Source of the DNA: Nocardiopsis ansamitocini
Lineage (GTDB): Bacteria; Actinomycetota; Actinomycetes; Streptosporangiales; Streptosporangiaceae
Reading direction: 5' to 3'
Length of the DNA stretch: 64,000 bases
Assembly: GCF_030268225.1 (NCBI RefSeq)
Contig: NZ_BSQG01000011.1
Location: 19,751-83,750 of the forward strand
Positions 1-33,032 of the stretch are shown here, piece by piece. Within the stretch, counting starts at the first letter, position 1. Each line of letters begins with the position of its first letter. The position numbers were made by a program, and so were the translations under genes. Under the pieces are notes generated by a model. It was not told the DNA's origin, did no database searches, and worked only from the letters and a program-made list of their open reading frames with translations.

Positions 1-147
1 CATCACGCCCTGGAAGAGCATGGAGACCGCTCGTCCGACGTCGTGGAGAAAGCGGAAGATATCGCGCTGGAGGACGACCTTGACGACCCTGAGGTCGTGG
101 GAGAACCCGTAGTCCGGTGCCTGGACGGCCGTGTCCGACGATGTCAC
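1..147 (-). CDS. hypothetical protein, N-terminal fragment (gene continues past the window start); GTG start overlaps the lanKC stop codon (GTGA)
   Basis: Minus-strand frame MTSSDTAVQAPDYGFSHDLRVVKVVLQRDIFRFLHDVGRAVSMLFQGVM... has very high GC3, unlike the overlapping plus-strand ORF 43..318. The GTG sits directly on the TGA of the upstream synthetase gene. No family recognised. Confidence 0.3.
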   Translation of the reverse strand, partial: MTSSDTAVQAPDYGFSHDLRVVKVVLQRDIFRFLHDVGRAVSMLFQGVM

Positions 148-2716: not shown

Positions 2717-2740
2717 CGAGTGTTCTCCATTCGACAAACC

Positions 2741-3124: not shown

Positions 3125-4045
3125 TCAGAGCCGGTCGAGCAGCTCGGCCTTCTTGGCGGCGAACTCGTCGTCGGTGAGGAAACCGTCGGCGTGCAGGCGG
3201 CCCAGTCGCTCGATCTGCGCGTAGACAGCGTCCTCCTCGTCACCGTCACCGGTTCCGGGCTCCCCCGCGGGAAGGGCCTCCGGCCCGGCCCCCAACTGGC
3301 GGGCCGGTTGGGCCGTTCCGGCCCAGATGTAGGCGGTGATGGTGGCCGCCATCAGCAGTGTCGCCGCTCCCTCCCGCCCTTCCTCGCACAACAGGCAGGA
3401 GAAGTCGTGCTTGGGCTTGACCGCTTCCTTGGCCGCGAAACCGTGCTCGACCACGCGCAGGTACCCGTATTCCCACCCGTCGGAGGGCACCCATTCGGCT
3501 GCGGCCACGCGGGAGAGGGGGAACTCGCGCCGTTGTTCCTTGCGCTTGCGCGTCGTGGCCGCGGAACCGGACCACACCAGCCGCACCGACGCACCGTCGA
3601 AGGTGGCGGTTCCCTCCTCCGTCGTGATGTGCAGCGGCAGCTTGGGAACGAGGCGGGTGGCCACCTGAGCGGGGTCCGTAGCCGTTGCGTCGTCGAGGGC
3701 GTTCTCGATCGCGAAGGTGATCTGGTCGGAGTAGTACTCGGCCAACAGCTCGGTCTTCGCCGGACCGGTCAGCCGGAAGGGCTGGGCCTTCTCGTTCAGC
3801 ATCGCGCCCGCAGTGGCGTAGGGGTCGGCGTGCTCCCGCAGGTGCAGCTGAAGGACCCACCCCTTCTTCTTCCCGGCTCCTGGCCGAAAATCCACCGAGG
3901 CGATGGCCGCGATCGGCACCTCGCACTGGCCGAGCTTCTTCAACAGGGGGTCTTTGAACCACCCGGTGGCGTAGCGGATGGCGATCGACTCACTGCCAAA
4001 ACGCCAGACGGCCTGTTTCCCGCGCAATTCATCCATCGGCGCCAT
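3125..4045 (-). CDS. DUF4429-like protein with C-terminal SHOCT domain
   Basis: C-terminus GFLTDDEFAAKKAELLDRL resembles the short SHOCT oligomerisation motif; the N-terminal two-thirds resemble DUF4429. High GC3; ATG at 4045. Confidence 0.55.
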   Translation of the reverse strand: MAPMDELRGKQAVWRFGSESIAIRYATGWFKDPLLKKLGQCEVPIAAIASVDFRPGAGKKKGWVLQLHLREHADPYATAGAMLNEKAQPFRLTGPAKTELLAEYYSDQITFAIENALDDATATDPAQVATRLVPKLPLHITTEEGTATFDGASVRLVWSGSAATTRKRKEQRREFPLSRVAAAEWVPSDGWEYGYLRVVEHGFAAKEAVKPKHDFSCLLCEEGREGAATLLMAATITAYIWAGTAQPARQLGAGPEALPAGEPGTGDGDEEDAVYAQIERLGRLHADGFLTDDEFAAKKAELLDRL

Positions 4046-4165: not shown

Positions 4166-4999
4166 TCATCTGGCCCATTCCGGCCGTCGGGCCACGAGGA
4201 AGGTCTCCGACGGGGCGACCGGGCGAAGCAGGAGAAGGACGAAACCGAGCGTGCCGCGGAGGTTGTGCAGCCAGCTCTCCCGATAGTCCGATGTGTAGCG
4301 CAGGATCCGGGTCCGGGCGGCCGGGTCCTGCTCGTTGAAGCCCCAGTCGACGAGACCTCGGACGCACGCCCAGAGGAAGTTGTCCCACTCCTCGGCCGTG
4401 CTCACCTGGGCGTGGACGGGCATCCATCCCGCCGCGGTGACCTGTTCGAGCACACCGTTTAGGTCGGTGTGGGGGTCCTCGTCGAGGCTGAGCGCGGCGA
4501 GGGTCTGCTCGTTCGGGGGGCGGTGCCAGAAGCTCTCCCCCAACAGGACGTAGCCGTTGGGGAGCACCTGGGCGCGGAGGTGCTTCAAGGTGCCGTCCAG
4601 GCCGCCGAAGACCTCGGTGAGTCCCACACACATCACGAGGTCGCTGGGGTCCTGGGGCGTGAACGCGCGGGCGTTGACGGCGTGTCCGCTGAACCGGTCG
4701 GCCAGACCGCGGCGTTCGGCCTCCCGGGTGGCCCGGGCGATGTGCGCCGCGGAGAGGTCCACCCCGACGCACGAGGAGCCGGGGTGCAACTCCAGTGCGC
4801 GCAGCGACCAGGCGCCCAGACCGCAACCGATGTCGAGCACGGTCGCGTCGGACTTGAGCTCGACCATGCGCAGCAGTCGGTCGATGGTGGCCCCGGACAC
4901 GGGGCCCACCACCGGATGGTCGTCACCCAACCGGTTCCAGATGGCCTCATTGTCGATCCCGGTGTAGTCCATGGCCTGCGTCCTCTCGGGGGAACCCAC
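4166..4999 (-). CDS. class I SAM-dependent methyltransferase
   Basis: Motif I VLDIGCGLGAWS. GTG start directly abuts the TGA of the upstream gene (TGAGTG), with AGGAG 7 nt upstream. Alternative ATG at 4972. Confidence 0.8.
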   Translation of the reverse strand: MGSPERTQAMDYTGIDNEAIWNRLGDDHPVVGPVSGATIDRLLRMVELKSDATVLDIGCGLGAWSLRALELHPGSSCVGVDLSAAHIARATREAERRGLADRFSGHAVNARAFTPQDPSDLVMCVGLTEVFGGLDGTLKHLRAQVLPNGYVLLGESFWHRPPNEQTLAALSLDEDPHTDLNGVLEQVTAAGWMPVHAQVSTAEEWDNFLWACVRGLVDWGFNEQDPAARTRILRYTSDYRESWLHNLRGTLGFVLLLLRPVAPSETFLVARRPEWAR

Positions 5000-6511
5000 T
5001 CATCGCTCCTGGTCTTCGTCGGTGCCGTCGACCCATCGCCGCGCGGCTGCGGCGATCGCGTCGCGGGCCGCGCGCACCTCTGCCGCCAGGGGCCGGTCCC
5101 GGTCCAGCGGTGGGCTGATCTCGGCGAGCTCGGCCCAGAGGCTGTCGGGCTCGGCCTCCTGGCCGACCAGTGCGGCGTACTGGGCGAGGCCCACCCCGAG
5201 CGATCCGATGACGAGCCAGGCGTGCCCGAGCGCCTCGGCCACGGCGTTGGCACCGTTGAGCGCCATCGGGACATGGTCCTGGTTTCCGTTGTTGCAGGGC
5301 AGGGAGGTCAGAGAGGCCGGCACGACCAACTGCCTGATCCGGGAGACGAAAGACGTCGCGCTCACCTGCACACCGGCGAGTCCGCTGCCGGCTCCGGGCC
5401 GTGGGGTGAGCATCGGGGGCAGCCCACCGTTGGTCTCGGAAGCGCACAGCAGCGCGAGCTGCCGGTCGGCCAGGTAGGCCACCTGTTGGAGGCACAGGCC
5501 CAACTGGTCGGAGCACAGACCGACCGGCATGGCATGGAAGTTGCCGCCGTGCAGGACCTCTCCCTCGTAACAGACGGGGTTGTCCGTGGTCCCGCCGGCC
5601 TCACGGACAAGGATCTCCTCTTCCGCGTCCAACCGGTCCTGCACCGCTCCGAGGACCTGGGGGGCGCACCGGAGGCTGTAGGGCTCCTGAAGCGGACGCC
5701 CCGGGCCCCGCTCGGCCCCTTCGGGAAACTGCGACCTGATCCACCGGGCCACCCGTATCTGACCGTGTTGGCCTCTGACCTCGCCGATGCCGTGGTGGTA
5801 GGCCTGCGGATCCGCTCCCAGCAGGCGCGCCATCCTGCCGGTCAGGAGGGCGGACGCGCGCACCAGACGGGAGAGTTGCCGGTGGTTGTCGATGGTGAGT
5901 GCCAGCGAGACCCCGGTGCCGTTGACGAAGGCCAGCGCCTCGCGTGCAGACCACTCGACCGGCTCGGCGCCGACCGCTTCCAGTGCGCGCTCGGCGGGCA
6001 GGCAGACCCAGGCGCCCGCGTCGTCGCGCACCCACGCCTCCCCGCTTCCGCTGAAGGCGAGCGCGGCACTGGCCAGGGGCTGGAGGTCGCCGCTCGCGCT
6101 GACCGTCCCGTCCCGGGGGATCGCCGGGGTGAAACCGCTGTTCCACAACTTGGCGAGAAGCGACCAGAACTCCGGGGAGACCGCCGAGTGGCCCAGTCGC
6201 ATCCCGGACAGGCGCAACCACACCACCAGGCGACACACGTCGGGGGGCAGGGGACTGCCCTGGGCGGTCGCCAGATGGGCGATGAGCCCGCTGCCCTGTT
6301 CCTGGGCCGATTCGGCTGCGGGGAAGGCGACCAGCGGCCCGAATCCGTTCGTGACCCCGTAGACCGGCTTCCCGTCCGCGAGCGTCTTGGCCAGGGTGGT
6401 CATCCCGCCGCGCATCCGAGCGGCGTCCTCCTCTTCGCACTCCGCGAGTTCAGCGTCCCAATCCGCAGCTCGCGCGATCGCGGCGAGATTTCGCCGGGTA
6501 CCCGTCGTCAC
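5000..6511 (-). CDS. MIO-dependent aromatic amino acid ammonia-lyase/aminomutase (HAL/PAL/TAL family)
   Basis: MIO-forming tripeptide in TVSASGDLQPLAS. Also GFGPLV, NGTGVS, QEPYSLRCAPQ, HGGNFHAMPVG and NQDHVPMALNGAN. Start assigned to GTG at 6511, overlapping the stop of the upstream adenylating-enzyme gene (GTGA). Confidence 0.85.
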   Translation of the reverse strand: MTTGTRRNLAAIARAADWDAELAECEEEDAARMRGGMTTLAKTLADGKPVYGVTNGFGPLVAFPAAESAQEQGSGLIAHLATAQGSPLPPDVCRLVVWLRLSGMRLGHSAVSPEFWSLLAKLWNSGFTPAIPRDGTVSASGDLQPLASAALAFSGSGEAWVRDDAGAWVCLPAERALEAVGAEPVEWSAREALAFVNGTGVSLALTIDNHRQLSRLVRASALLTGRMARLLGADPQAYHHGIGEVRGQHGQIRVARWIRSQFPEGAERGPGRPLQEPYSLRCAPQVLGAVQDRLDAEEEILVREAGGTTDNPVCYEGEVLHGGNFHAMPVGLCSDQLGLCLQQVAYLADRQLALLCASETNGGLPPMLTPRPGAGSGLAGVQVSATSFVSRIRQLVVPASLTSLPCNNGNQDHVPMALNGANAVAEALGHAWLVIGSLGVGLAQYAALVGQEAEPDSLWAELAEISPPLDRDRPLAAEVRAARDAIAAAARRWVDGTDEDQER

Positions 6512-7626
6512 GTTTGCACTCCCGTGTTCGAGATCGGTTGCATCTGCACCCGCCGGAGTTTGCCCGTCTCGGAGCGGTCGATCCGGTCGACGGGAACCAC
6601 CTTGCGGGGACGGCATTCCAGTTCCGCCAGGGCGGCGGCCAGGTCGAGATCGGCTCCGGTACGGCCGCCGCCGGGAACGATCAGCAGGTCGAAGTGCTCG
6701 CCGATGAGGGGGTCGGTCACCGGCGTGCAGGCCAGGTCCGCACAGGACACCGAGGACCGCAGCCGTTCCTCGATGAGTTCGAGGTCGATCCTGCGTCCAT
6801 TGACGTTGACGAGCCGGCCGCGCCGACCGGCGAAGCCGAATCTGCGTGCGTCGATGATCCGCACCCGGTCGTCCATCTCCCAGGAATCCGGTGCGCGGCC
6901 GTCCGGAAAGCGAGCCAGCCGTGGACTGCGTACAGTTAGCGGAACTTCACCCTCGGTTGTACTCTCGGGGCGGGGCAGCGCGAACTCGACGTCCGGGCAC
7001 AGCTCCCAGGGCGGGTTCCCGCCGCTCCACCTGCGGGTGGCGATGGCACCGGTCTCCGTGGAGCCGAACAGTTCCAGCAGCGAGGCGGTTTCGGGGAACT
7101 TCGCAAGCAGGTCGGCGGCGGTGGCGGGGAGCACGGACGTGCTGTGGACAACGCTGACCCGTTCGAGAGAACGAACCCAGGAGGCTCGCTGAAGCAGAAT
7201 CCGAAAGGTCCAGGGGATGGCCATGACGGCCCAGCGCCGGTGCGGTTGCGGCGGCATGGCGGCGAACTGCGGGCGGTACCAAACAGGAAGCCCGAGCTTC
7301 GCGGGGACGAGGAGGCTGACGAGTGCCCCGTAGAGATGCCGGGGCGGAGCGAACGACAGGACCGCCTCGGGTCGGTCGGGTCCGATCATGGCCGCCAGGA
7401 GCGACGCTTCCGCCCACAGTTGCTCGCGACTGCGCCGCCAGCGTCGGCGTTCTCCGGTGGTCCCCGACGTGAAGAAGTCCAGTACCGGCGGGAACCGTTT
7501 CATGACGAAGTCCTCGACCGGTTCGTCCAGTTCGTCCCAGCGCACCGTCCAGGGGCGTTCGGTGAACTCGGGCGCCTGGAAGTCGCCGGCCAACAAGTCC
7601 GCCGGCGAGAGTCGGTCGTACGTCAC
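6508..7626 (-). CDS. short adenylate-forming enzyme (AMP-binding/ANL superfamily, PaaK-like size)
   Basis: FFTSGTTGERRRW (A3 core), GSTETG (A5-like), ETGKL (A10 Lys). Only about 372 aa. Start ambiguous: GTG 7626 (GGAGG 8 nt upstream, overlaps the uORF stop) or GTG 7662. Confidence 0.75.
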   Translation of the reverse strand: MTYDRLSPADLLAGDFQAPEFTERPWTVRWDELDEPVEDFVMKRFPPVLDFFTSGTTGERRRWRRSREQLWAEASLLAAMIGPDRPEAVLSFAPPRHLYGALVSLLVPAKLGLPVWYRPQFAAMPPQPHRRWAVMAIPWTFRILLQRASWVRSLERVSVVHSTSVLPATAADLLAKFPETASLLELFGSTETGAIATRRWSGGNPPWELCPDVEFALPRPESTTEGEVPLTVRSPRLARFPDGRAPDSWEMDDRVRIIDARRFGFAGRRGRLVNVNGRRIDLELIEERLRSSVSCADLACTPVTDPLIGEHFDLLIVPGGGRTGADLDLAAALAELECRPRKVVPVDRIDRSETGKLRRVQMQPISNTGVQT

Positions 7627-7877: not shown

Positions 7878-8870
7878 TCAAGCCGAGGTGGAACCCACCC
7901 GCTTCTTCAGCGGTTCCCACCAGCTCCGGTTGTCCACGTACCAGCGCACGGTGTCGGCCAACCCCTGCCGGAAGGGCACCTGGTCCCGGTAGCCCAACTC
8001 GGTGCGGATCCTCGTGTGGTCGAGGGAGTAGCGGTGGTCGTGTCCCTTGCGGTCCTCGACGAAGCGCACCATCGACCAGTCGTGCCCCAGCTCCTTTAGG
8101 ACCAGTGCCGTCACCTGCTCGTTGGTCATCTCCACGGCGCTGCCGATGTTGTAGATCCGCCCCGGGTCACCGTGTTGCGCGACCAGGGCGATACCGGCGC
8201 AGTGGTCGTCGACGTGCACCCACTCGCGCACGTTGCTGCCGTCCCCGTAAAGGGGGACCGTCTCGCCGTCCAGGAGGTTCGTGACGAAGAGCGGGATCAG
8301 CTTCTCGGGGAACTGGTAGGGCCCGTAGTTGTTGCAGCACCGGGTGATGCACACCGCGAGACCGTGCGTCTTGTAGAAGGCACGGGCGATGAGATCGGCC
8401 GCGCCCTTCGTTGCCGCGTAGGGGGAGTTGGGCTCCAGCAGGCCCTGCTCGTCCCAGGACTCCGACGTGATCGTCCCGTAGACCTCGTCGGTCGACACGA
8501 GGACGAATTTGTCGACCTTCGCCCTCAACGCGCTGTCGAGAAGGGCGAACGTCCCGTTCACATTGCTGCGCAGGAACTCCGAACCGTCAGCGATGGAGCG
8601 GTCGACATGCGTCTCGGCCGCGAAGTGGACGACGAGCGAGACACCGGCCATCACCTCGTCGAGCAGAGCGGTGTCACAGATGTCCCCGGAGACGAATCTG
8701 AGCCGGGGGTCCTCCATTACGCGTTCCAGGCTCCCCAATGTTCCGGCGTAGGTCAGCTTGTCCAGGACCACGACCTCGGAGGCGTCCACCCCCGGATACG
8801 CGCCCGCGAGAACGCGTCGGACGAAATTCGATCCGACAAACCCAGCGCCGCCAGTGACCAGCATTCTCAT
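7878..8870 (-). CDS. rmlB: dTDP-glucose 4,6-dehydratase
   Basis: MRMLVTGGAGFVGSNFV Rossmann N-terminus, YAATKGAAD (YxxxK), LVSTDEVYG. Typical RmlB length of 330 aa. Confidence 0.9.
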   Translation of the reverse strand: MRMLVTGGAGFVGSNFVRRVLAGAYPGVDASEVVVLDKLTYAGTLGSLERVMEDPRLRFVSGDICDTALLDEVMAGVSLVVHFAAETHVDRSIADGSEFLRSNVNGTFALLDSALRAKVDKFVLVSTDEVYGTITSESWDEQGLLEPNSPYAATKGAADLIARAFYKTHGLAVCITRCCNNYGPYQFPEKLIPLFVTNLLDGETVPLYGDGSNVREWVHVDDHCAGIALVAQHGDPGRIYNIGSAVEMTNEQVTALVLKELGHDWSMVRFVEDRKGHDHRYSLDHTRIRTELGYRDQVPFRQGLADTVRWYVDNRSWWEPLKKRVGSTSA

Positions 8871-8882
8871 GTGCTCTCACCT

Positions 8883-9764
8883 CTACCGTGTGCCATTCGA
8901 GCGCCGAGCCTTTTCCATCACGTATCGACCGTACGGCGAGTCCTTCATCTCTTCTCCCAACCTGTGACACGCCTCCGCGTCGATGAATCCCATACGCAAC
9001 GCGATCTCTTCGAGGCAGGCGATGCGCTCGCCTTGTCCCTTCAGCACCGAGTGGACATAGCAGGCGGACTCGAAGAGGGACTCCTCCGTTCCCGCGTCGA
9101 ACCACGCGACACTGTCTTCCAGCGTCACGAAACGCGCCCTTTCCTGGGCAAGGTAAGCCCGGTTGACATCGGTGATCTCAAGTTCGCCGCGCGCCGACGG
9201 ACGAACCTCCTTGGCCACCTCGACCGCATCGGCGCCGTAGAAATAGAGCCCCGTCACCGCGTAGTCGGAATCGGGGCGTTCCGGTTTTTCCTCGATCGAG
9301 ATCAACCTCCCGGACCGGTCGAACCCCCCGACCCCGTAGCGGCACGGATCAAAGACCTTGTGTCCGAAGAGGACGCATCCGTCCACCGTGCGTGCGGCCT
9401 CCTGGACGGCTTCCTCGAATCCGGGGCCGTGGAACAGGTTGTCGCCCAGTACCAGCGCACTGGGTCGGCCGTCGATATGACGTTCGCCGATGAGCAGAGC
9501 CTCCGCGATTCCTCGCGGCTCTTTTTGCTCCCGGTAACCGATATCGAGACCGAGCCGCTTTCCGTCTCCGAACACCCGTTGCAGAGGGGAAATCGATTCG
9601 GGGGCGGAGATCACCAGAATTTCACGGATTCCAGCGAGCATGAGAACCGCGATCGGATAGTAGATCATCGGCTTGTCGTAGATGGGAAACAACTGCTTAG
9701 ACGCCGCACTCGTACTCGGCCGGAGACGGCTCCCGTTTCCTCCCGCCAGAACAATACCCTTCAC
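8883..9764 (-). CDS. rmlA: glucose-1-phosphate thymidylyltransferase
   Basis: VKGIVLAGGNGSRLRP at the GTG start, with AGGAG 5 nt upstream. Also EKPERPDSDYAVTGLYFY. The longer N-terminal extension in the ORF track is rejected. Confidence 0.9.
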   Translation of the reverse strand: MKGIVLAGGNGSRLRPSTSAASKQLFPIYDKPMIYYPIAVLMLAGIREILVISAPESISPLQRVFGDGKRLGLDIGYREQKEPRGIAEALLIGERHIDGRPSALVLGDNLFHGPGFEEAVQEAARTVDGCVLFGHKVFDPCRYGVGGFDRSGRLISIEEKPERPDSDYAVTGLYFYGADAVEVAKEVRPSARGELEITDVNRAYLAQERARFVTLEDSVAWFDAGTEESLFESACYVHSVLKGQGERIACLEEIALRMGFIDAEACHRLGEEMKDSPYGRYVMEKARRSNGTR

Positions 9765-10037
9765 AGAAACTCCTGGTCGGACAGAGCGGTGGGTTTCACC
9801 GAACCGTACACGGGGTCTCTCGGGTTTTGTCCAGACTCGGCACCGTTCCTGCACGATGGTATGTTCACCGAGCCAGGGAGCTATACGCCCCCACCCCTTC
9901 CCGACCCACGCGAAAAACCTGGACCGGCAGCCCGAACTCCCCAAGTTAAAGGCGGCAACAACGCCGACGGCACTCAATGGCCGACCTTTTCATTGCGGAT
10001 GACTTTCTCCGAACGCGTACCAGGAAAAGGAAATACC

Positions 10038-11318
10038 GTGCGCATCCTCATAGCGACATACGCAGACAGGTCCTACTTCTTCAGCATGGTGCCACTGGCA
10101 TGGGCGCTGCGGGCCGCGGGTCACGAGGTGCGAGTGGCCAGCCAGCCGGAGCTGACCGACGCGGCCGCAAGCACCGGCCTGACCGTACTCCCGGTCGGCG
10201 AGGACCACATGTCCAGGAAACTGCTGCACTCGCCGGCGACCCAGCAGTACCAGGACTACCAGGAATCCGCCTTCAACCTGGCCGAGGACCGGCCGGAGGA
10301 GCTGACGTGGGACCGCCTCAAGAAGGCGCAACTCCGGTTCGTCGTCTGGTGGTGGAAGGTGATCAACGAACCGATGCTGAAAGAACTCGTGGCCTTCTGT
10401 CGGGAGTGGCGGCCGGATCTGGTGATCTGGGAGCCGATGACCTTCGCCGGGGCAGTGGCCGCCGAGGCGTGCGGTGCCGCCCACGCCCGCTTCCTGTGGA
10501 GCTACGACCTGGTCGGCCAGAATCGCCGGAACTACCTGGAGGCGATGGCGGAGCAGCCCGCGCACGAGCATGCCGACCCGCTGCGCGAATGGCTCACCTC
10601 CCGCGCCGAGCGCTACGACGTCCCCTTCTCCGAGGACCTGATCAGAGGGCAGTTCTCGATCGGCCCCATTCCCGCCTCCCTCAGGGCCGGGGAGCCCGTG
10701 GTCGAGGAGAAGGTGGGCGTGCGCCATGTCCCCTACGAGGGGGCAACCGTCCTGCCCGGATGGCTGCGCACCCCACTCGAGCAGCGACGCGTGCTCGTGG
10801 ACTGGCGGGCGCTGCGGGCCGGTGACCCCGAACGCAGCGAGGCGGTCCTGCGGGAGGTGCTGGCCGGCGCGATCGGCCTGGACGCGGAAGTGCTGCTGGT
10901 CCTTCCGCCGGCGGACCGGGAGACACTCCCCCCCTTCCCCGACCGTGTGCGCGTCATCGAAGAGGGCATCTCCCACATCGTGCTTCCCACGTGCTCCGCG
11001 GTGGTCCACCCCGGAGGGTTCGACACGTACTGCACGTCCTTGCTGCACGGGGTGCCGCAGGTGATCGTCCCCGAGCCGGACCTGTTCGACGCGACGCCAC
11101 TGGCGAGTGCCCTGGCCGACGCCTCCGCGGGCAGCGTGCTCCCCTGGGCGGGGTGCACCGCCGGGGGCGTCCGGGAGCGGCTGGACGAGGTGCTCGGTTC
11201 CGCGGAGATAGCCGCGGGCGTCCGCCGACTCCAGCAGGAGGTACTGGCCATGCCCACACCGGACCTTCTCGTGGCGGAACTGGAACGCCTCACCGTCAAG
11301 CACCGGAAAGAGGACTGA
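10038..11318 (+). CDS. GT1-family glycosyltransferase (antibiotic/macrolide-type)
   Basis: VRILIATYADRSYFFSMVPLAWALRAAGHEVRVAS N-terminal domain and HPGGFDTYCTSLLHGVPQVIVP C-terminal nucleotide-sugar domain. GTG at 10038 with AAAGGA RBS. The remaining upstream part of ORF 8172..11318 is antisense shadow of rmlA/rmlB. Confidence 0.85.
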   Translation: MRILIATYADRSYFFSMVPLAWALRAAGHEVRVASQPELTDAAASTGLTVLPVGEDHMSRKLLHSPATQQYQDYQESAFNLAEDRPEELTWDRLKKAQLRFVVWWWKVINEPMLKELVAFCREWRPDLVIWEPMTFAGAVAAEACGAAHARFLWSYDLVGQNRRNYLEAMAEQPAHEHADPLREWLTSRAERYDVPFSEDLIRGQFSIGPIPASLRAGEPVVEEKVGVRHVPYEGATVLPGWLRTPLEQRRVLVDWRALRAGDPERSEAVLREVLAGAIGLDAEVLLVLPPADRETLPPFPDRVRVIEEGISHIVLPTCSAVVHPGGFDTYCTSLLHGVPQVIVPEPDLFDATPLASALADASAGSVLPWAGCTAGGVRERLDEVLGSAEIAAGVRRLQQEVLAMPTPDLLVAELERLTVKHRKED

Positions 11319-11351
11319 GCCGACCGCGGGCACCCGCTCCGGGGCGAGACT

Positions 11352-12599
11352 TCAGCCGGTGAGGTCGTGGAGGAGGGGGACGAGGTCGGCGGGGGCGGGC
11401 ATGTCCTGCATTTCCCGGCGCAGGCGGTCGGCCGACCGGGCGAACCCCGGCTCCCCGAGCAGCCGTCGTACCCGCTCCCCCACCGTCTCCCCCGTGGCGT
11501 CGGCGGAGTCCAGCGCGAACCCCGCGCCTGCCCGCTCCACCTCCCGGGCCAACAGCGGAGCGTCGAACAACCGGTCCCTTGGGGCGATGACCTGGGGAAC
11601 CCCGTGGGTGAGCGAGGTGAACACGGTCCCCGGCCCGCCCTGGTCGACCATGGCGTGGCAGGTGGGGGTGAGTGCGTGGAGGGGGGCGTAGTCGACGAGG
11701 CGGGTGTTGGGGGGGATGGGTCCGAGGGTGTGGTGGTGGGCGGTGGGGATGGTGGCGATGATTTCGGCGTCGAGGTCGGCGAGTCCGTTGAGGATGTCGG
11801 TGACGGAGACGGTGTAGCCGCCGAAGCGTTCGGAGGCGCTGGTGCCCAGGGTGAGGCAGATGCGGGGTCGGTGGGGTGGGGTGCGCAGCCAGTGGGGGAC
11901 GACGGCGCGCCCGTTGTAGGGGACGTAGCGCATCGGCAGGTACCTGGCGTCGGACAACGGATCGATCCGCAGCGAGGGAGGAACCTGGTCGATGGTGGCC
12001 TGGCCGTGGACGAGTTCTTCGTCATAATCGAGGCCGTAGCGTGCGGCGAGGGCGGTGAGCCAGGCGGCTAGGGGGTCTTCTTGCTGGTCGGGGGGCTGCT
12101 CGCCCATCCGCCGCAGGTACAACCCCCGCATCCGGGAGAACAGGTCGAGGCTCCAGAGGAAGCGGACGTGGGCGGCCCCGCAGGCCCTGGCCGCGATCGC
12201 CCCCGCGAACGTCGTGGGCTCCCAGATCACCAGGTCCGGACGCCACTGGCGGCAGAACGCCACCAGGTCGCCCAGCATCGGCTCGTTGACCATGCGCCAC
12301 CACCAGGTCACCATCTGGCGATAGCCATCCCTCATGTAATCCCAGGTGAGAACCTCGTCGCGGTCTTCACCCATGTCGAAGACCGCGGTCCGGCCGCCGG
12401 CCGCGCGTTTGACCATCCTCGGAAAAGAGTGGTTGCGGCCCACGGGCACGAAGGGCAGTCCGGCACCGGTGACCACACCTTCGAGTTCGGGCTGACTGGC
12501 CACCCGCACCTCGTGCCCGGCCGCCCGCAACGCCCACGCCACGGGAACCATCCCCAGAAAATGCGTCCGCTCGGCCTGGGCCGCGATCACCACGCGCAC
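11352..12599 (-). CDS. GT1-family glycosyltransferase, paralog of 10038..11318, convergent
   Basis: VRVVIAAQAERTHFLGMVPVAWALRAAGHEVRVAS and HAMVDQGGPGTVFTSLTHGVPQVIAP. GTG 12599 with GAGGTGG RBS. Confidence 0.85.
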   Translation of the reverse strand: MRVVIAAQAERTHFLGMVPVAWALRAAGHEVRVASQPELEGVVTGAGLPFVPVGRNHSFPRMVKRAAGGRTAVFDMGEDRDEVLTWDYMRDGYRQMVTWWWRMVNEPMLGDLVAFCRQWRPDLVIWEPTTFAGAIAARACGAAHVRFLWSLDLFSRMRGLYLRRMGEQPPDQQEDPLAAWLTALAARYGLDYDEELVHGQATIDQVPPSLRIDPLSDARYLPMRYVPYNGRAVVPHWLRTPPHRPRICLTLGTSASERFGGYTVSVTDILNGLADLDAEIIATIPTAHHHTLGPIPPNTRLVDYAPLHALTPTCHAMVDQGGPGTVFTSLTHGVPQVIAPRDRLFDAPLLAREVERAGAGFALDSADATGETVGERVRRLLGEPGFARSADRLRREMQDMPAPADLVPLLHDLTG

Positions 12600-12660: not shown

Positions 12661-13659
12661 TCATCGCGCGACTGCGCGGGCTTCCCGGCTGTGTTCCGCC
12701 TGCGCCTCGGCCGCACGGATCGTGCTGCCGGTGTACTCCAGGAAGACGTCGTCGAGGGACGGCGGCGTCACCCTGATGGAGCGGACCGGGAACTTCAGGT
12801 CGGCGAACAGGCGCGGAACGAATTCCTCGCCCTCGGCGACCGTGAAGACGACGTTCTCCCCCTCGATCTGCGGAGCGATCCCGAACCGGTCCAGCAGCAC
12901 CGCACCGAGGGCGTCGGCCTCGGCCGAGACCATCTCCACCCGGTCCTTGCCGACGCTCTCCTTGAGCGCCCGGGGGCTGTCCAGCACCGCGATGGAGCCT
13001 TCGTCGATGATGGCGATCCGCTGACAGTTCTCGGCTTCCTCCAGGTAATGCGTCGTCATGAAAACGGTCACGCCGTCGCGCTCGTTGATCTCGCGGATGC
13101 CTTCCCAGATGGCCTGTCTGGTCTGCGGGTCGAGACCGATCGTCGGCTCGTCGAGGAAGAGCACGCGGGGCGAGTGGAGCAGGCCGCGGGCGATCTCCAG
13201 GCGTCGGCGCAGGCCACCGGAATAGGTCCCCACGATCCGGTCCTTGTGGCTGCCCAGGCCGACGGTCTCGATCGCGCGGTCGATCCGCTCCTCCACCAGG
13301 TGCTTGGGAACGGCGTAGATCTCGGCGTGGAACCGGAGGTTCTGCCGTCCGGTCAGGTAGCGGTCGAGGGTCTGCTCCTGGAAGACCAGCCCGATGGTGC
13401 GGCGGACCTCCTGGCGTTGGTGCACGACGTCGTAACCCCCGACGGAAGCGGATCCGCCCGTCGGAGTGAGGAGGGTGCACAGCATCTTGATGACCGTGGA
13501 CTTGCCCGCACCGTTGGGGCCGAGAAAACCGAAGATCTCGCCCGGCTCGACCTCGAAGTCGACGCCCTTGACCGCCTCGACCTCGTCGTAGCGCTTGTGG
13601 AGGCCGCGCGCGGACACGGCAGGGGCGGCGTTTCCTCCGGGCACACCCGAGTGGGTCAC
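12661..13659 (-). CDS. ABC transporter ATP-binding protein (DrrA-like); no cognate permease in the window
   Basis: Walker A GPNGAGKST, signature YSGGLRRRLEIA, Walker B VLFLDEPT. GTG start with GAGGAGG RBS. Confidence 0.85.
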   Translation of the reverse strand: MTHSGVPGGNAAPAVSARGLHKRYDEVEAVKGVDFEVEPGEIFGFLGPNGAGKSTVIKMLCTLLTPTGGSASVGGYDVVHQRQEVRRTIGLVFQEQTLDRYLTGRQNLRFHAEIYAVPKHLVEERIDRAIETVGLGSHKDRIVGTYSGGLRRRLEIARGLLHSPRVLFLDEPTIGLDPQTRQAIWEGIREINERDGVTVFMTTHYLEEAENCQRIAIIDEGSIAVLDSPRALKESVGKDRVEMVSAEADALGAVLLDRFGIAPQIEGENVVFTVAEGEEFVPRLFADLKFPVRSIRVTPPSLDDVFLEYTGSTIRAAEAQAEHSREARAVAR

Positions 13660-13734: not shown

Positions 13735-14301
13735 TCAGGACGCGGGCGGACCCGCGGCGAGCGTCCGGACGAACTCAACACCTGCCGTCTCCCACTGCTC
13801 CCGGTAGACGGCGAAGACGTTCGCCGTCCTCAACTGGTCGCCGTCCTTCACGTACTCGGGGAACACGACCTCTTTGACGGCGTCGATCGGGGTGCCGTCC
13901 AGCGCGGCGATCGAGTCGTCGAGCGTCCAGAAGTAGATCTTCCTGATGTTCCACATCGAGAACGCGTAGTTGGCGGTCAGCGCGGTCGCGGCGGTCGCGG
14001 CTCCCGGCCCGCCGCGAGACGGGTCGAGCGCCACGCTGCACTTCACGTAACCGCTGTGCGGGCTGAGTTCGTGCAACGAGGTGTAGCCGACGATCCTCCC
14101 CGACTCCGGGTGCACGATCTCGAACTGGGCGCAGACCTGCTGGTGCGGACCGTTGGGCCAGAGCGACATGGACGTGAAGGCGTCGCGGCTGGGGAGCTTC
14201 TCCAACCCCAGACCGGTCAGTTCCTCGAAAACGGCGCTACCGGTACGGGTCTGAGCGGCGGTGAGCCGGATCCCGAGCGCTTCGGTGTGCGGAATTATCA
14301 C
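13735..14301 (-). CDS. GNAT-family N-acetyltransferase (RimL/acetyltransf_3-like)
   Basis: SRGGPGAATAATALTANYAF matches the acetyl-CoA-binding motif A (R-G-x-G-x-A). GTG start at 14301. The ORF-track 5-prime extension to 14505 overlaps the precursor gene and hairpin and is rejected. Confidence 0.5.
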   Translation of the reverse strand: MIIPHTEALGIRLTAAQTRTGSAVFEELTGLGLEKLPSRDAFTSMSLWPNGPHQQVCAQFEIVHPESGRIVGYTSLHELSPHSGYVKCSVALDPSRGGPGAATAATALTANYAFSMWNIRKIYFWTLDDSIAALDGTPIDAVKEVVFPEYVKDGDQLRTANVFAVYREQWETAGVEFVRTLAAGPPAS

Positions 14302-14387: not shown

Positions 14388-14489
14388 TCAACCGCAGTTG
14401 AAGTAACTGGCCCCACTGTTGGCCAGAAAAACCTGGTCGGACTCGATTTCCAACTCCTGAAGGGAGAGGATGTCGGAAAGCGTCATCAT
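14388..14489 (-). CDS. lanA1: class III lanthipeptide precursor peptide candidate (33 aa): MMTLSDILSLQELEIESDQVFLANSGASYFNCG
   Basis: Not in the ORF track (below its size cutoff). AAAGAGGTGG Shine-Dalgarno immediately upstream. The leader carries an ILELQ-like motif (DILSLQELEIE). The core carries exactly one Ser-x-x-Ser-x-x-x-Cys motif (SGASYFNC), the labionin/lanthionine-forming pattern of class III substrates. Confidence 0.6.
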   Translation of the reverse strand: MMTLSDILSLQELEIESDQVFLANSGASYFNCG

Positions 14490-15286
14490 GCCACCTCTTT
14501 CTCAATCACTAGGACGCCGCGAAAATCGCCCGCACCCCAGGGTCCGGGCCAATAATCGAAGGCGAAAGGATAAGTTAGGAGCACACCACGCTATCGGAAG
14601 CAGACCCCTTGAGAAACCGAAGAAAGCAGAACTGCCCTTTCAGCTGCCATCAAAAGTAGGCCAATGCGTCCGAACGCGCAAGAATAGGCACCCGAAACGA
14701 AATTGGCCCTCCTCCCGACGGGTCCCGCCGGCGGGACACCCGGTCCGCCCCCGCAGCCGGTGGACCACACGTTGCCCCTGATGTCCCCACGCCTCCCCAC
14801 CAGCGGCTCCGACGCCTGGAGGCCCTTCGTCCCCGCCCGCGCACTACCGCCGGTGACCTGCCCCGAACGGCTCACCCCCGGCACCATCCGACCTTCCCGC
14901 ACACCAGTGGGCCGGCGCCGGTGTCCCCCTATTCTTGGCCACGGCACAGTCGCGTCCGGCACGATCGACGATCGTCGTGCGCACCGCCCATCCGTCCGTC
15001 TCACGTCCCCGGCATGTCCTGCGGAGGCACGCCGGAAAAGAAAGACCGGGCACCGGGGCGGGAGACACCGATCCGCCCCGAGCGCCGGGACGGCGCGGGG
15101 CCGGGAGAGCGACGGGAGACCGCTTCGCGCCGTGGCTCTCGCGGCCAGGAAGCGGGACGACGGCCCCGATGACGCCTGGCCCCGGCGGGCACCTGGTGCC
15201 GGCCTTTGACACTCTTCGGCAGGGGAGACAGCGCACAGACGGTCCTCTTCCGGGCTGACGGACCGATTCGGCAGGGAAGGATATGG

Positions 15287-16609
15287 ATGGTGATGAGCGA
15301 TCAGGCCGCGCGGATCCTCGACGAGGTCCGCGCCTACCACCGGGAGACCCAGCAGGAACAGGAGTTCATTCCGGGTGTCACCGAGATCTGGTCATCCGGC
15401 GCGGTTCTCGACGAAGAGGACCGGGTGTCTCTGGTCGAGGCCGCCCTGGAGATGCGGATCGCAGCGGGCAGGAACTCGCGCAAATTCGAGTCCATCTTCG
15501 CCCGCAGGCTGAACCGGCGCAAAGCCCACCTGACCAACTCCGGTTCGTCGGCGAACCTGCTCTCCCTGTCGGCGCTGACGTCGCACCTGTTGGAAGAACG
15601 CCGGCTCCGGCCCGGCGACGAAGTGATCACGGTCGCCGCGGGGTTCCCCACCACCGTCAACCCGATCCTGCAGAACGGGCTGATCCCGGTATTCGTGGAC
15701 GTCGAGCTGCGGACCTACAACACCACCGCCGATCGGGTGGCTCAAGCGATCGGTCCGCGCACCCGGGCGATCATGATCGCGCACGCGTTGGGCAACCCGT
15801 TCGAGGCCACCGAAATCGCCCAGTTGGCCGAGGACAACGACCTGTTCCTGATCGAGGACAACTGCGACGCCGTGGGCTCCACCTACGACGGGCGACTGAC
15901 GGGTTCCTTCGGCGACCTGTCGACGGTGAGCTTCTATCCGGCCCATCACCTCACCATGGGCGAAGGCGGCTGCGTGCTCACCTCGAACCTGGTTCTGGCC
16001 CGGATCGTGGAGTCGATGCGCGACTGGGGGCGGGACTGCTGGTGCGAACCCGGGGAGAGCAACACCTGCCACAAGCGGTTCGCCTACCAGCTGGGCACGC
16101 TGCCGGCCGGGTACGACCACAAGTACACCTTCTCCCACGTGGGCTACAACCTGAAGGGAACCGATCTTCAGGCGGCTCTCGGTCTGAGCCAACTCACCAA
16201 ACTCGACGGGTTCTCAGCGGCCCGGCGTCGCAACTGGCGCCGGCTGCGCGAGGGTCTCGACGGCCTGCCGTGGCTGCTGCTTCCCGAGGCGACACCGCGC
16301 GGCGATCCGAGCTGGTTCGGTTTCGTTATGACTGTTTCGCCAGCGGCACCGTTCAGCAGAGCGGAACTGGTCGAGTTCCTGGAGAACCGAAAGATCGGTA
16401 CCCGCCTGCTGTTTGCCGGGAATCTGACACGGCACCCCGCGTACATCGACCGCCCCCACCGCGTGGCCGACGACCTGACCAACAGTGACCTGATCACGGA
16501 GCAGACGTTCTGGACCGGTGTCTATCCGGGACTCACCGACGAGATGCTCGACTACGTCATCTCCTCCATCACCGAGTTCGTGAAGACACGCGGGGGCTCT
16601 GGCCATTGA
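15287..16609 (+). CDS. NDP-4-keto-6-deoxyhexose 3-dehydrase (E1/ColD/SpnQ-type, PMP- and [2Fe-2S]-dependent member of the DegT/DnrJ/EryC1 aminotransferase fold)
   Basis: [14 protein letters not shown] has His where aminotransferases have the PLP lysine. Exact C-X57-C-X1-C-X7-C spacing (EDNC ... [13 protein letters not shown]), the E1 iron-sulfur signature. ATG 15287 with GGAAGGA RBS. Confidence 0.85.
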
Positions 16610-16814: not shown

Positions 16815-16934
16815 ATGGCACTCTCGGACGTCCTGCTTCTCCAGGGAATGGAGATCGAGACGGCGGGCAACGATGTCCCCCTTCTCGGAAGTGGTTTGAG
16901 CATTACCGGCTGCACCGTACTGCAGGCCGCATAG
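16815..16934 (+). CDS. lanA2: class III lanthipeptide precursor peptide candidate (39 aa): MALSDVLLLQGMEIETAGNDVPLLGSGLSITGCTVLQAA
   Basis: Not in the ORF track. GAGGAGGTG RBS 10 nt upstream. Leader LSDVLLLQGMEIET parallels the other precursor (LSDILSLQELEIES). Core has a single S-x-x-S-x-x-x-C motif (SGLSITGC). TAG stop. Confidence 0.65.
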   Translation: MALSDVLLLQGMEIETAGNDVPLLGSGLSITGCTVLQAA

Positions 16935-33025: not shown

Positions 33026-33032
33026 CGCGCCG

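What the first reader, a model, noticed from the sequence alone, without database searches (positions are those of the whole stretch)
10038..12599. Convergent pair of paralogous antibiotic-type GT1 glycosyltransferases without an auxiliary activator gene
The two GTs share near-identical N-terminal acceptor-domain motifs (MVPLAWALRAAGHEVRVASQPEL) and face each other tail-to-tail with a 33-nt gap.

Many GTs of this clade (DesVII/EryCIII type) need a P450-like helper protein, but none is adjacent. Two GTs with one 3-dehydrase suggest a disaccharide, or the same sugar placed on two acceptors (two core peptides?). The tight convergent arrangement is uncommon.
Basis: partly seen in the sequence, partly recalled or inferred. 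Interest (0 to 1): 0.5.

Follow-up and report, generated by a model that had tools for sequence, protein, structure and literature searches.

The report
Active glycosyltransferase paired with degenerate paralogue
The two tail-to-tail sugar-transferase genes are real and sit in a lanthipeptide gene cluster, but one has lost the residues needed to bind and transfer a sugar yet is conserved across species, so it is probably a non-catalytic partner rather than a second enzyme.

Summary
GT-A (10038-11318, +) and GT-B (11352-12599, -) are 46% identical EryCIII/DesVII-type GT1 paralogues, 33 nt apart tail to tail, in Nocardiopsis ansamitocini. No P450-derived activator is in the window.

The cluster is a class III lanthipeptide BGC. 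It holds LanKC, two LxLQ/Sx2Sx3C precursor genes, RmlA/RmlB, an RfbH-like 3-dehydrase, a TAL-like lyase, a short CoA-ligase-like enzyme and a GNAT-like protein. The same cluster type occurs in at least six other Nocardiopsis/Glycomyces genomes and, more distantly, in Nonomuraea and Streptosporangium, none with a helper gene nearby.

The new point is that GT-A is not an ordinary second transferase. It belongs to a conserved clade that has lost the general-base His13 (Tyr), Gly275, the base-stacking Phe/Tyr326, His342 and Gly346 (always Asp). GT-B keeps all of these except His342 (Gln). GT-A still has an intact ORF, coding-type GC3, dN/dS below 1 and a confident GT-B fold model.

The best reading is a pseudo-glycosyltransferase that partners the catalytic GT(s). 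This rests on sequence and synteny only.

The parts
10038..11318 (+). GT-A: EryCIII-like GT1 paralogue with degenerate catalytic and donor site (Tyr13; VDWRA loop; VHPGGFDT). Proposed pseudo-glycosyltransferase.
   Evidence: TIGR04516 scores 428.7, below the cut-off of 440. Motif tables. AF2 pLDDT 92.8. Foldseek top hits are ElaGT, EryCIII and VinC. GC3 is 0.883.
11319..11351 (.). 33-nt convergent intergenic gap.
   Evidence: The predicted hairpin is no more stable than shuffled sequence (z = 0.20). No terminator-like site was found.
11352..12599 (-). GT-B: canonical EryCIII/DesVII-type GT1, the presumed catalytic transferase. It keeps His13, the TLGTS loop and GGPGT, but has Gln in place of His342.
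   Evidence: TIGR04516 scores 510.4, above the cut-off of 440. Residue table.
8883..9977 (-). RmlA, glucose-1-phosphate thymidylyltransferase. The true start is probably near 9761. It is transcribed divergently from GT-A in every related locus.
   Evidence: TIGR01207 scores 366 bits over residues 73-355. Synteny.
7878..8870 (-). RmlB, dTDP-glucose 4,6-dehydratase.
   Evidence: TIGR01181 scores 409 bits, above the cut-off of 365. Pfam hits.
15206..16609 (+). RfbH/E1-like PLP-dependent NDP-hexose 3-dehydrase.
   Evidence: NF011936 scores 669.8 bits, above the cut-off of 423. Pfam DegT_DnrJ_EryC1.
14388..14489 (-). Class III precursor peptide A1: (M)MTLSDILSLQELEIESDQVFLANSGASYFNCG.
   Evidence: It has the LxLQ leader motif and the Sx2Sx3C core, and homologous precursors occur in L001-L010.
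16815..16934 (+). Class III precursor peptide A2: MALSDVLLLQGMEIETAGNDVPLLGSGLSITGCTVLQAA.
144..2717 (-). LanKC, class III lanthionine synthetase.
   Evidence: NF038151 scores 961 bits, above the cut-off of 575. Pfam RamC_N, LANC_like and Pkinase. It is GLU50032.
13735..14301 (-). GNAT-like 188-aa protein of a family present in 1-4 copies next to precursor genes in all related loci. Candidate peptide N-acyltransferase.
   Evidence: Weak Acetyltransf_3 and Acetyltransf_1 hits. Homologues found. Precomputed Pfam for homologues.
12661..13617 (-). DrrA-type ABC transporter ATPase.
   Evidence: TIGR01188 scores 336 bits, above the cut-off of 312. Pfam.
5000..6415 (-). Aromatic amino acid ammonia-lyase or aminomutase (HAL/TAL-like). 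The true start is probably near 6500.
   Evidence: Pfam Lyase_aromatic, E = 2.7e-106. NCBIfam HAL and TAL models all score below cut-off. The gene is conserved in all related loci.
6508..7626 (-). Short adenylate-forming enzyme resembling the 386-residue 4-coumarate-CoA ligase model.
   Evidence: Pfam AMP-binding. TIGR02372 scores 60.8 bits, far below cut-off. Conserved next to the lyase.
4166..4999 (-). SAM-dependent methyltransferase.
   Evidence: Conserved in related loci.
3125..4045 (-). DUF4429/SHOCT protein, conserved in the cluster family.

Best explanation
The pair consists of one working enzyme and one pseudoenzyme.

GT-B is a canonical inverting GT1. It takes a dTDP-6-deoxyhexose, made by the adjacent RmlA and RmlB and further deoxygenated by the RfbH-like 3-dehydrase, and transfers it onto the matured product of a class III lanthipeptide pathway.

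GT-A descends from an active GT at the same genomic position; the positional homologue in Nonomuraea is still canonical. It has lost the general base and the nucleotide and pyrophosphate contacts. It has been kept as a folded GT-B-fold protein with a better-conserved N-terminal (acceptor and interface) domain.

GT-A most likely acts non-catalytically. It could pair with GT-B, and possibly with the two other canonical GTs of the cluster, in the way EryCIII-type GTs form dimers, either stabilising or activating the partner or presenting the substrate. That would be the role P450-derived pseudoenzymes play for EryCIII and DesVII.

Shown: paralogy, the motif losses, their conservation, synteny, absence of a helper gene. 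Inferred: that GT-A cannot transfer sugar, that it binds GT-B, and what the acceptor is.
For: 1. Residue table in EryCIII numbering, 12 GT-A-clade sequences against 106 canonical homologues:
- His13: Tyr in 11, Cys in 1, against His in 98.
- Gly275: Arg in 8, Gly in 4, against Gly in 105.
- Phe326: no aromatic residue in any, against Tyr or Phe in 102.
- His342: P/M/L/A/G/T, against His in 102 and Gln in 4.
- Gly346: Asp in 12 of 12, against Gly in 105.
- Thr350: variable.
The donor-site roles of G275, F326, H342, G344, G346, S347 and T350 are taken from the EryCIII-EryCII structure paper (PMC3391682). His13 as the deprotonating residue is taken from the review PMC10054333.

2. Of 102 columns at least 90% conserved in canonical members, 12 are lost in the clade, and they concentrate at His13 and the donor site.

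3. The clade is not decaying. ORFs are intact in at least 12 sequences of 41-83% pairwise identity. NG86 dN/dS is 0.33-0.53 for the less diverged pairs, against 0.27-0.43 for GT-B orthologues. GC3 is 0.883. The AF2 model has pLDDT 92.8 and pTM 0.92.

4. The C-terminal (donor) domain is relaxed relative to the N-terminal domain: 0.41 identity against 0.49 in canonical pairs at matched N-domain divergence.

5. The GT divergent from RmlA is degenerate in three different ways in three lineages: HxGGFD, SYGDPG and SHGAPEA, each without His13. This looks like loss of constraint rather than one new chemistry. The Nonomuraea positional homologue P0008 is canonical.

6. GT-A-like and GT-B-like genes are convergent neighbours in five genomes.

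7. NCBI's own model places GT-A below the family cut-off, and the record names it only 'nucleotide disphospho-sugar-binding domain-containing protein'.
Against: - Nothing here measures binding or activity.
- The substituted residues Asp273, Trp274 and Asp346 are invariant within the clade. That could mean a rebuilt, functional pocket rather than a dead one.
- The sugar-binding Asp of the D/E-Q region and the GVPQ motif are retained.
- The strongest linkage of GT-A is to RmlA, as a divergent pair in all loci. Linkage to GT-B is weaker. In the N. trehalosi type (L003, L019-L021) no canonical GT lies within about 4 kb, and in L018 a GNAT-like gene separates the two GTs.
- Related clusters in Nonomuraea and Streptosporangium have neither a GT-A-like protein nor a P450-like helper, so canonical GTs of this subfamily do not generally need such a partner.
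- GT-B itself has Gln at the 'absolutely conserved' His342. Gln does recur at this site in other family members.
Confidence: 0.5

Rival explanations
1. GT-A is catalytically active through a remodelled site. The clade-specific Trp274, Arg275 and Asp346 would replace the lost stacking, phosphate and base functions. Alternatively it uses a different donor, or an acceptor that needs no His base. The pair would then install two different modifications.
For: Asp273, Trp274, Phe345 and Asp346 are invariant or nearly so within the clade. The D/E-Q Asp and GVPQ are retained. GT-A is linked tightly and universally to RmlA/RmlB. The N. trehalosi-type loci show no second GT nearby.
Against: Four donor-contacting positions (326, 342, 347, 350) have become variable within the clade. 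Arg275 is absent from the N. tropica subclade, which has Gly-Ser there. Sister lineages at the same genomic position carry quite different degenerate motifs. The C-terminal domain evolves faster than in canonical GTs.
Confidence: 0.25
2. One reading: two ordinary active GT1 paralogues that add two sugars (a disaccharide), or the same sugar to two different precursor-derived peptides.
For: Both proteins have the complete two-domain EryCIII-like architecture. Two precursor genes are present. In Nonomuraea the equivalent convergent pair is canonical on both sides.
Against: GT-A lacks His13, Gly275, the aromatic residue at 326, His342 and Gly346, and falls below the TIGR04516 cut-off. The number of GTs cannot be matched to sugars from this pair, because two more canonical GTs lie just outside the window.
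Confidence: 0.1
3. GT-A is a decaying, functionless duplicate.
For: Catalytic and donor residues are lost and the protein evolves faster than GT-B. For the N. tropica against N. ganjiahuensis pair, dN is 0.24 for GT-A and 0.15 for GT-B.
Against: Full-length ORFs without frameshifts occur in at least 12 sequences from Nocardiopsis, Glycomyces and metagenomes, down to 41% identity. dN/dS is below 1. GC3 is of coding type. The fold prediction is confident. The position next to RmlA is conserved.
Confidence: 0.03

Closest known systems
EryCIII-EryCII and DesVII-DesVIII (macrolide desosaminyltransferases with P450-derived, Cys-less activators)
   Same: GT-A and GT-B are closest in sequence and fold to this clade (E = 1e-82 to 1e-104; TM-score about 0.9). 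Both match the three-helix auxiliary-protein motif. The proposed mechanism shares the logic of a catalytic GT working with a pseudoenzyme partner that stabilises or activates it (PMC3391682).
   Different: No P450-derived activator gene is present. The candidate partner is a GT-fold paralogue, not a P450 fold. The pathway is a RiPP pathway, not a macrolide pathway. Dependence on a partner is untested.
VinC (vicenistatin) and ElaGT (elaiophylin): solved members of the same clade
   Same: They are the top sequence and structure matches: 7yp3 at E = 4.7e-104 for GT-B, and 3wad. From my own knowledge, these enzymes work without a helper protein. That matches the absence of helper genes in all related loci.
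   Different: They act on macrolactam and macrodiolide aglycones and are not reported with a degenerate paralogue.
GtfA-GtfB of streptococcal serine-rich-repeat adhesin glycosylation (recalled from knowledge, not tested here)
   Same: A catalytic GT-B-fold enzyme works with a non-catalytic GT-B-fold paralogue that helps with substrate binding and stability. This is the closest functional analogy to the proposed GT-B/GT-A pair.
   Different: It is a different GT family with UDP-GlcNAc as donor and a protein acceptor. No sequence relationship was tested.
Glycosylated RiPPs: NAI-112 (class III, AplG N-glycosylates Trp), cacaoidin (class V, three GTs, diglycosylated Tyr), lipoavitides (Tyr-glycosylated and N-acylated)
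   Same: Each is a lanthipeptide-type RiPP with NDP-sugar genes and tailoring GTs (PMC11912497). Lipoavitides combine a GNAT acyltransferase, FabH-type genes and a GT (bioRxiv 10.1101/2023.10.25.564083), as the N. tropica-type loci do.
   Different: Here the cores are very short single-ring Sx2Sx3C peptides with a LanKC. There are three to six EryCIII-type GTs and a TAL-like lyase. No product has been described in the papers I could search.

Membership tests
Activator-dependent family glycosyltransferase (NCBIfam TIGR04516; EryCIII/DesVII type GT1) | Whole-protein score at or above the curated cut-off of 440 bits | tested here: inconclusive
   GT-B scores 510.4 bits and meets it. GT-A scores 428.7 bits and does not.
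Activator-dependent family glycosyltransferase (NCBIfam TIGR04516; EryCIII/DesVII type GT1) | Two-domain EryCIII-like architecture (Pfam PF21036 plus PF06722) and GT-B fold | tested here: met
   Both proteins hit both domains. The GT-A model has pLDDT 92.8, and the best PDB matches are ElaGT, EryCIII, VinC and SpnP at TM-score 0.79-0.91.
Activator-dependent family glycosyltransferase (NCBIfam TIGR04516; EryCIII/DesVII type GT1) | Three-helix auxiliary-protein motif H-X-R-X5-D-X5-R-X12-20-D-P-X3-W-L-X12-18-E-X4-G. The exact wording is recalled from Isiorho et al. 2014. That such a motif exists is confirmed in PMC10054333. | tested here: met
   The regular expression matches GT-A, GT-B, EryCIII and 76 of 120 homologues.
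Activator-dependent family glycosyltransferase (NCBIfam TIGR04516; EryCIII/DesVII type GT1) | Catalytic His13 and the NDP-contacting residues G275, F326, H342, G344, G346 and S347 | tested here: inconclusive
   GT-B keeps all of them except H342, which is Gln. GT-A keeps only G344 and a Thr at position 347; it has Tyr13, Arg275, Glu326, Pro342 and Asp346. The feature is therefore met for GT-B and not met for GT-A.
Activator-dependent family glycosyltransferase (NCBIfam TIGR04516; EryCIII/DesVII type GT1) | A cognate P450-derived activator (TIGR04515, lacking the heme Cys) encoded nearby | tested here: not met
   The two P450-like genes of the window score 124.8 and 67.1 bits against a cut-off of 343 and both keep the heme Cys. 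No P450 appears in the gene tables of L001, L002 and L014-L017. The rest of the genome could not be searched.
Activator-dependent family glycosyltransferase (NCBIfam TIGR04516; EryCIII/DesVII type GT1) | Activity that depends on the activator protein | not testable with these tools
   This needs enzyme assays.
Class III lanthipeptide biosynthetic gene cluster | LanKC synthetase with lyase, kinase and cyclase regions | tested here: met
   NF038151 scores 961 bits, above the cut-off of 575. Pfam RamC_N, Pkinase and LANC_like are all hit.
Class III lanthipeptide biosynthetic gene cluster | Precursor peptides with an LxLQ leader motif and an Sx2Sx3C core | tested here: met
   Two precursor genes are in the window and homologues occur in L001-L010 and L014. 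The motifs are as described in PMC7268733.
P450-derived GT activators (EryCII/DesVIII) | P450 fold without the heme-ligand cysteine | tested here: not met
   GT-A has a GT-B fold. It could work like an activator but is not a member of that family.

The most novel reading that the evidence does not exclude
GT-A-type proteins would be a previously unrecognised kind of auxiliary subunit. They are GT-fold pseudoenzymes, conserved next to the dTDP-sugar genes, that partner EryCIII-type glycosyltransferases in place of the P450-derived activators. The cluster family they mark, found across Nocardiopsis, Glycomyces, Nonomuraea and Streptosporangium, would make an undescribed group of very small class III lanthipeptides carrying several deoxysugars and probably an aromatic or fatty acyl cap.
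Probability: 0.3. Interest if true: 0.7.

Novelty: new variant of a known kind. Interest (0 to 1): 0.55.

Why it matters
Helper-dependent GT1 enzymes are a practical obstacle in glycodiversifying antibiotics, and how their P450-derived helpers work is still debated. A GT-fold pseudoenzyme that serves the same clade of transferases would be a second, independent solution. It would also be easy to test by co-expression.

The result also changes how the cluster should be read. Counting GT genes overestimates the number of sugars, so structure prediction and genome mining for this widespread, uncharacterised family of glycosylated class III lanthipeptides should separate canonical from degenerate GTs.

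If GT-A proves to be active after all, it would show that a GT1 can work without the His base and the HHGGxGS pyrophosphate loop. That would itself be informative.

Tried and rejected
- I looked up contigs encoding P0050, P0053 and the LanKC to see the part of the cluster left of the window. None is on record. Only the order of GenBank accessions could be used.
- I tested a bidirectional terminator hairpin in the 33-nt gap. It is no more stable than shuffled sequence (z = 0.20), and no terminator-like site was found.
- I considered the P450 at 38073-39284, and a divergent P450-like gene found by tblastn at 39158-40576, as remote activators. Both were rejected: the heme Cys is present and TIGR04515 scores are far below cut-off.
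- The genome scan used a C-terminal alignment of the GT-A clade. The tool chose the pattern C[TNA]A..G[VL]PQ, which misses N. ansamitocini itself and also picked up unrelated GTs (L012, L013). Only 8 of the 11 loci were informative.
- dN/dS by NG86 is compromised by saturation and GC3 bias for the deeper pairs. I used only the relative comparison with GT-B and the less diverged pairs.
- The SpnP structure paper (PMC4095934) is not held. The motif wording is from memory, and the role of His13 is taken from a review.
- Searches for a described product or for GT-fold pseudoenzyme helpers in natural-product clusters found nothing relevant. The only 'pseudo-glycosyltransferase' hit, VldE, is an active C-N coupling enzyme and is not comparable.
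- A heterodimer model could not be made with the single-chain structure tool.
Full report
**Observation.** The window is high-GC actinomycete DNA. An exact protein match assigns it to a 143-kb contig of Nocardiopsis ansamitocini. GT-A is at 10038-11318 (+), 426 aa. GT-B is at 11352-12599 (-), 415 aa. The stop codons face each other across 33 nt. The two proteins are 46% identical (E = 7e-109) and both carry Pfam EryCIII-like_N and EryCIII-like_C. Both genes have coding-type GC3 (0.88 and 0.89) and RBS-like sequences upstream. The gap holds no structure beyond what shuffled sequence gives.

**Family placement.** The best solved relatives of both proteins are the elaiophylin GT (7yp3), EryCIII (2yjn), VinC (3wad) and SpnP (4ldp), at E = 1e-64 to 1e-104. 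Aromatic-polyketide GTs score around 1e-20 to 1e-42. OleD-type and glycopeptide Gtf enzymes are barely detected. The AlphaFold model of GT-A is confident (pLDDT 92.8) and superposes on the same four structures. NCBIfam TIGR04516 ('activator-dependent family glycosyltransferase', cut-off 440) scores GT-B at 510 bits and GT-A at 429 bits.

**Context.** On the minus strand upstream of GT-A lie LanKC (144-2717), a DUF4429/SHOCT protein, a methyltransferase, an aromatic amino acid lyase, a short adenylate-forming enzyme, RmlB and RmlA. Beyond GT-B lie a DrrA-type ABC ATPase, a GNAT-like 188-aa protein, an RfbH-like 3-dehydrase, an alpha/beta hydrolase and a TetR regulator. Two unannotated class III precursor genes flank the dehydrase:
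- 14388-14489 (-): MTLSDILSLQELEIESDQVFLANSGASYFNCG
- 16815-16934 (+): MALSDVLLLQGMEIETAGNDVPLLGSGLSITGCTVLQAA

Both have the LxLQ leader motif and the Sx2Sx3C core (motifs as in PMC7268733). GenBank accession order shows that the cluster continues left of the window. Two more canonical GTs, GLU50026 (76% identical to GT-B) and GLU50022, lie 6 and 10 genes beyond LanKC (GLU50032). GT-A and GT-B are GLU50039 and GLU50040.

**No activator.** The window has two P450-like genes 26-27 kb away, among primary-metabolism genes. Both keep the heme cysteine and score 125 and 67 bits against the activator model TIGR04515, whose cut-off is 343. No P450 appears within 10 kb of the homologous GTs in six other loci. 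Both GT-A and GT-B nevertheless match the three-helix motif associated with auxiliary-protein binding (exact motif recalled from Isiorho et al. 2014; its existence is confirmed in PMC10054333).

**GT-A is a conserved degenerate paralogue.** I aligned 120 homologues and found 12 that form a clade with GT-A. In a library of 1.84 billion representatives, three representatives stand for this clade. The table uses EryCIII numbering. Donor-site roles are from the EryCIII-EryCII structure paper (PMC3391682) and the role of His13 is from PMC10054333.

| EryCIII residue | Role | GT-A clade (12) | Canonical (106) |
|---|---|---|---|
| His13 | general base | Tyr 11, Cys 1 | His 98 |
| Gly275 | pyrophosphate | Arg 8, Gly 4 | Gly 105 |
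| Phe326 | stacks on thymine | never aromatic | Tyr/Phe 102 |
| His342 | 'absolutely conserved', pyrophosphate | P/M/L/A/G/T | His 102, Gln 4 |
| Gly346 | pyrophosphate | Asp 12 | Gly 105 |
| Ser347, Thr350 | phosphate/sugar recognition | variable | Thr/Ser 105 each |

GT-B keeps all of these except His342, which is Gln. Gln recurs at this site elsewhere in the family. Twelve of the 102 columns that are at least 90% conserved in canonical members are lost in the clade.

**GT-A is not a relic.** ORFs are intact in Nocardiopsis, Glycomyces and metagenome sequences down to 41% identity. dN/dS is below 1 (0.33-0.53, against 0.27-0.43 for GT-B orthologues). The fold model is confident. The donor domain has diverged more than the acceptor domain: 0.41 against 0.49 identity at matched N-domain divergence.

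**Synteny.** The block of lyase, short ligase, RmlB and RmlA, followed by a divergent GT-A-like gene, is present in:
- N. tropica (two assemblies)
- N. ganjiahuensis
- N. trehalosi
- N. codii
- Nocardiopsis sp. ATB16-24
- Glycomyces fuscus
- several metagenome contigs

A canonical GT-B-like gene converges on GT-A, with gaps of about 19-36 nt, in five genomes. In two loci the contig ends after GT-A. In the N. trehalosi type, a GNAT-like gene, an ACP-like gene and a halogenase-like gene follow instead. In L018 a GNAT-like gene separates the two GTs.

In Nonomuraea sp. SYSU D8015 the same position is occupied by P0008, whose motifs are fully canonical, converging on another canonical GT with 20 nt of overlap. 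Two further lineages at the same position (P0081/P0123 and P0073) have also lost His13 and carry other non-canonical diphosphate loops, SYGDPG and SHGAPEA. Different degenerate solutions at one conserved position point to loss of catalytic constraint with retention of some other role.

**Mechanism.** I commit to GT-B as the catalytic transferase and GT-A as a non-catalytic GT-fold partner, with confidence 0.5. EryCIII-type GTs form homodimers and are stabilised and activated by a pseudoenzyme (PMC3391682). A heterodimer of paralogues in which one subunit has gone catalytically silent is a small evolutionary step, and the Nonomuraea pair shows a plausible ancestral state.

The main rival (0.25) is that GT-A has a rebuilt but functional pocket.

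The acceptor is unknown. The core peptides share no conserved hydroxyl residue apart from the ring-forming serines. A TAL-like lyase, a short CoA-ligase-like enzyme and GNAT-like proteins are conserved throughout. A phenolic acyl cap is therefore as plausible an acceptor as a peptide side chain. That step is inference.

**Comparison and novelty.** Glycosylated RiPPs are known: NAI-112 with AplG, cacaoidin, and lipoavitides. Pseudoenzyme helpers of GT1s are also known: EryCII and DesVIII. I found no description of this cluster family, nor of a GT-fold degenerate paralogue serving EryCIII-type GTs. The paper library is incomplete, so this absence is weak evidence. I rate the finding a new variant of a known kind. 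Interest is 0.55, because the central claim is well supported at the sequence level but functionally untested.

Noticed in passing
window 14388-14489 (-) and 16815-16934 (+): Two small class III precursor peptide genes flank the 3-dehydrase. Both have the LxLQ leader motif and a single Sx2Sx3C core. Related loci carry 1-4 such genes; ATB16-24 has four in tandem. The predicted mature peptides are only about 10-18 residues long.
   Followed up: partly
left of window position 1 (N. ansamitocini proteins GLU50022 and GLU50026): The cluster runs off the window. Two more canonical EryCIII-type GTs lie 6 and 10 genes beyond LanKC: P0050, 76% identical to GT-B, and P0053. The DNA could not be retrieved.
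   Followed up: partly
window 13735-14301 (-); L001 12649-13176, 13666-14211, 19585-20112; L014, L015, L018: A GNAT-like family of about 185-200 aa, with only weak Acetyltransf_3 hits, occurs in up to four copies per cluster and usually sits next to precursor genes. It may be a peptide N-acyltransferase, as in goadvionins and lipoavitides.
   Followed up: partly
window 5000-7626 (-): A HAL/TAL-like aromatic amino acid lyase and a 372-aa adenylate-forming enzyme, about the length of the 386-residue 4-coumarate-CoA ligase model, are conserved in every related locus. This suggests an aromatic acyl unit in the product. N. tropica-type loci add KAS III, acyl-CoA dehydrogenase, acyl-CoA ligase and an ACP-like gene.
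   Followed up: no
window 11352-12599 (-), residue aligned to EryCIII His342: GT-B and its ATB16-24 orthologue have Gln (DQGGPGT, NQGGPGT) where EryCIII has the 'absolutely conserved' His342. The N. tropica and N. ganjiahuensis orthologues have His. Gln recurs in a sizeable subgroup of the wider family (VHQGGxGT).
   Followed up: partly
L016 10001-11260 (P0081), L017 10001-11287 (P0073), P0123: Other lineages of the GT divergent from RmlA are degenerate in different ways: no His13, and SYGDPG or SHGAPEA loops. The Nonomuraea positional homologue P0008 (L014 10001-11248) is canonical.
   Followed up: partly
window 38073-39284 (-) and 39158-40576 (-): There is a tandem of an ordinary cytochrome P450 and a very divergent P450-like protein, 27% identical to it. 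The divergent one has no Pfam hit but keeps the FGxGxHxC heme motif. The two ORFs overlap by about 126 nt. They appear unrelated to the GT cluster.
   Followed up: partly
window 30977-38012 (+): An SPFH/Band 7 protein (682 aa) is followed by a 1659-aa protein with DUF3686, DUF7902 and AAA ATPase regions. This is an unusual large two-gene module of unknown role.
   Followed up: no
window 8883-9977 (-): The RmlA ORF has a 72-codon 5' extension that has no counterpart in orthologues (295-298 aa) and contains two terminator-like hairpins. The real start is probably near 9761, which leaves a divergent promoter region of about 276 bp shared with GT-A. The 8-10 kb segment has lower GC (0.63), and RmlA has a lower GC3 (0.74) than its neighbours.
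   Followed up: no
L014 20684-21248; L003 11727-13073 and L019 8843-10189: Related clusters carry extra tailoring genes that are absent from the window. The Nonomuraea locus has a flavoprotein of the PF02441 family, possibly a LanD-like decarboxylase. The N. trehalosi-type loci have a Trp-halogenase-like FAD enzyme.
   Followed up: no
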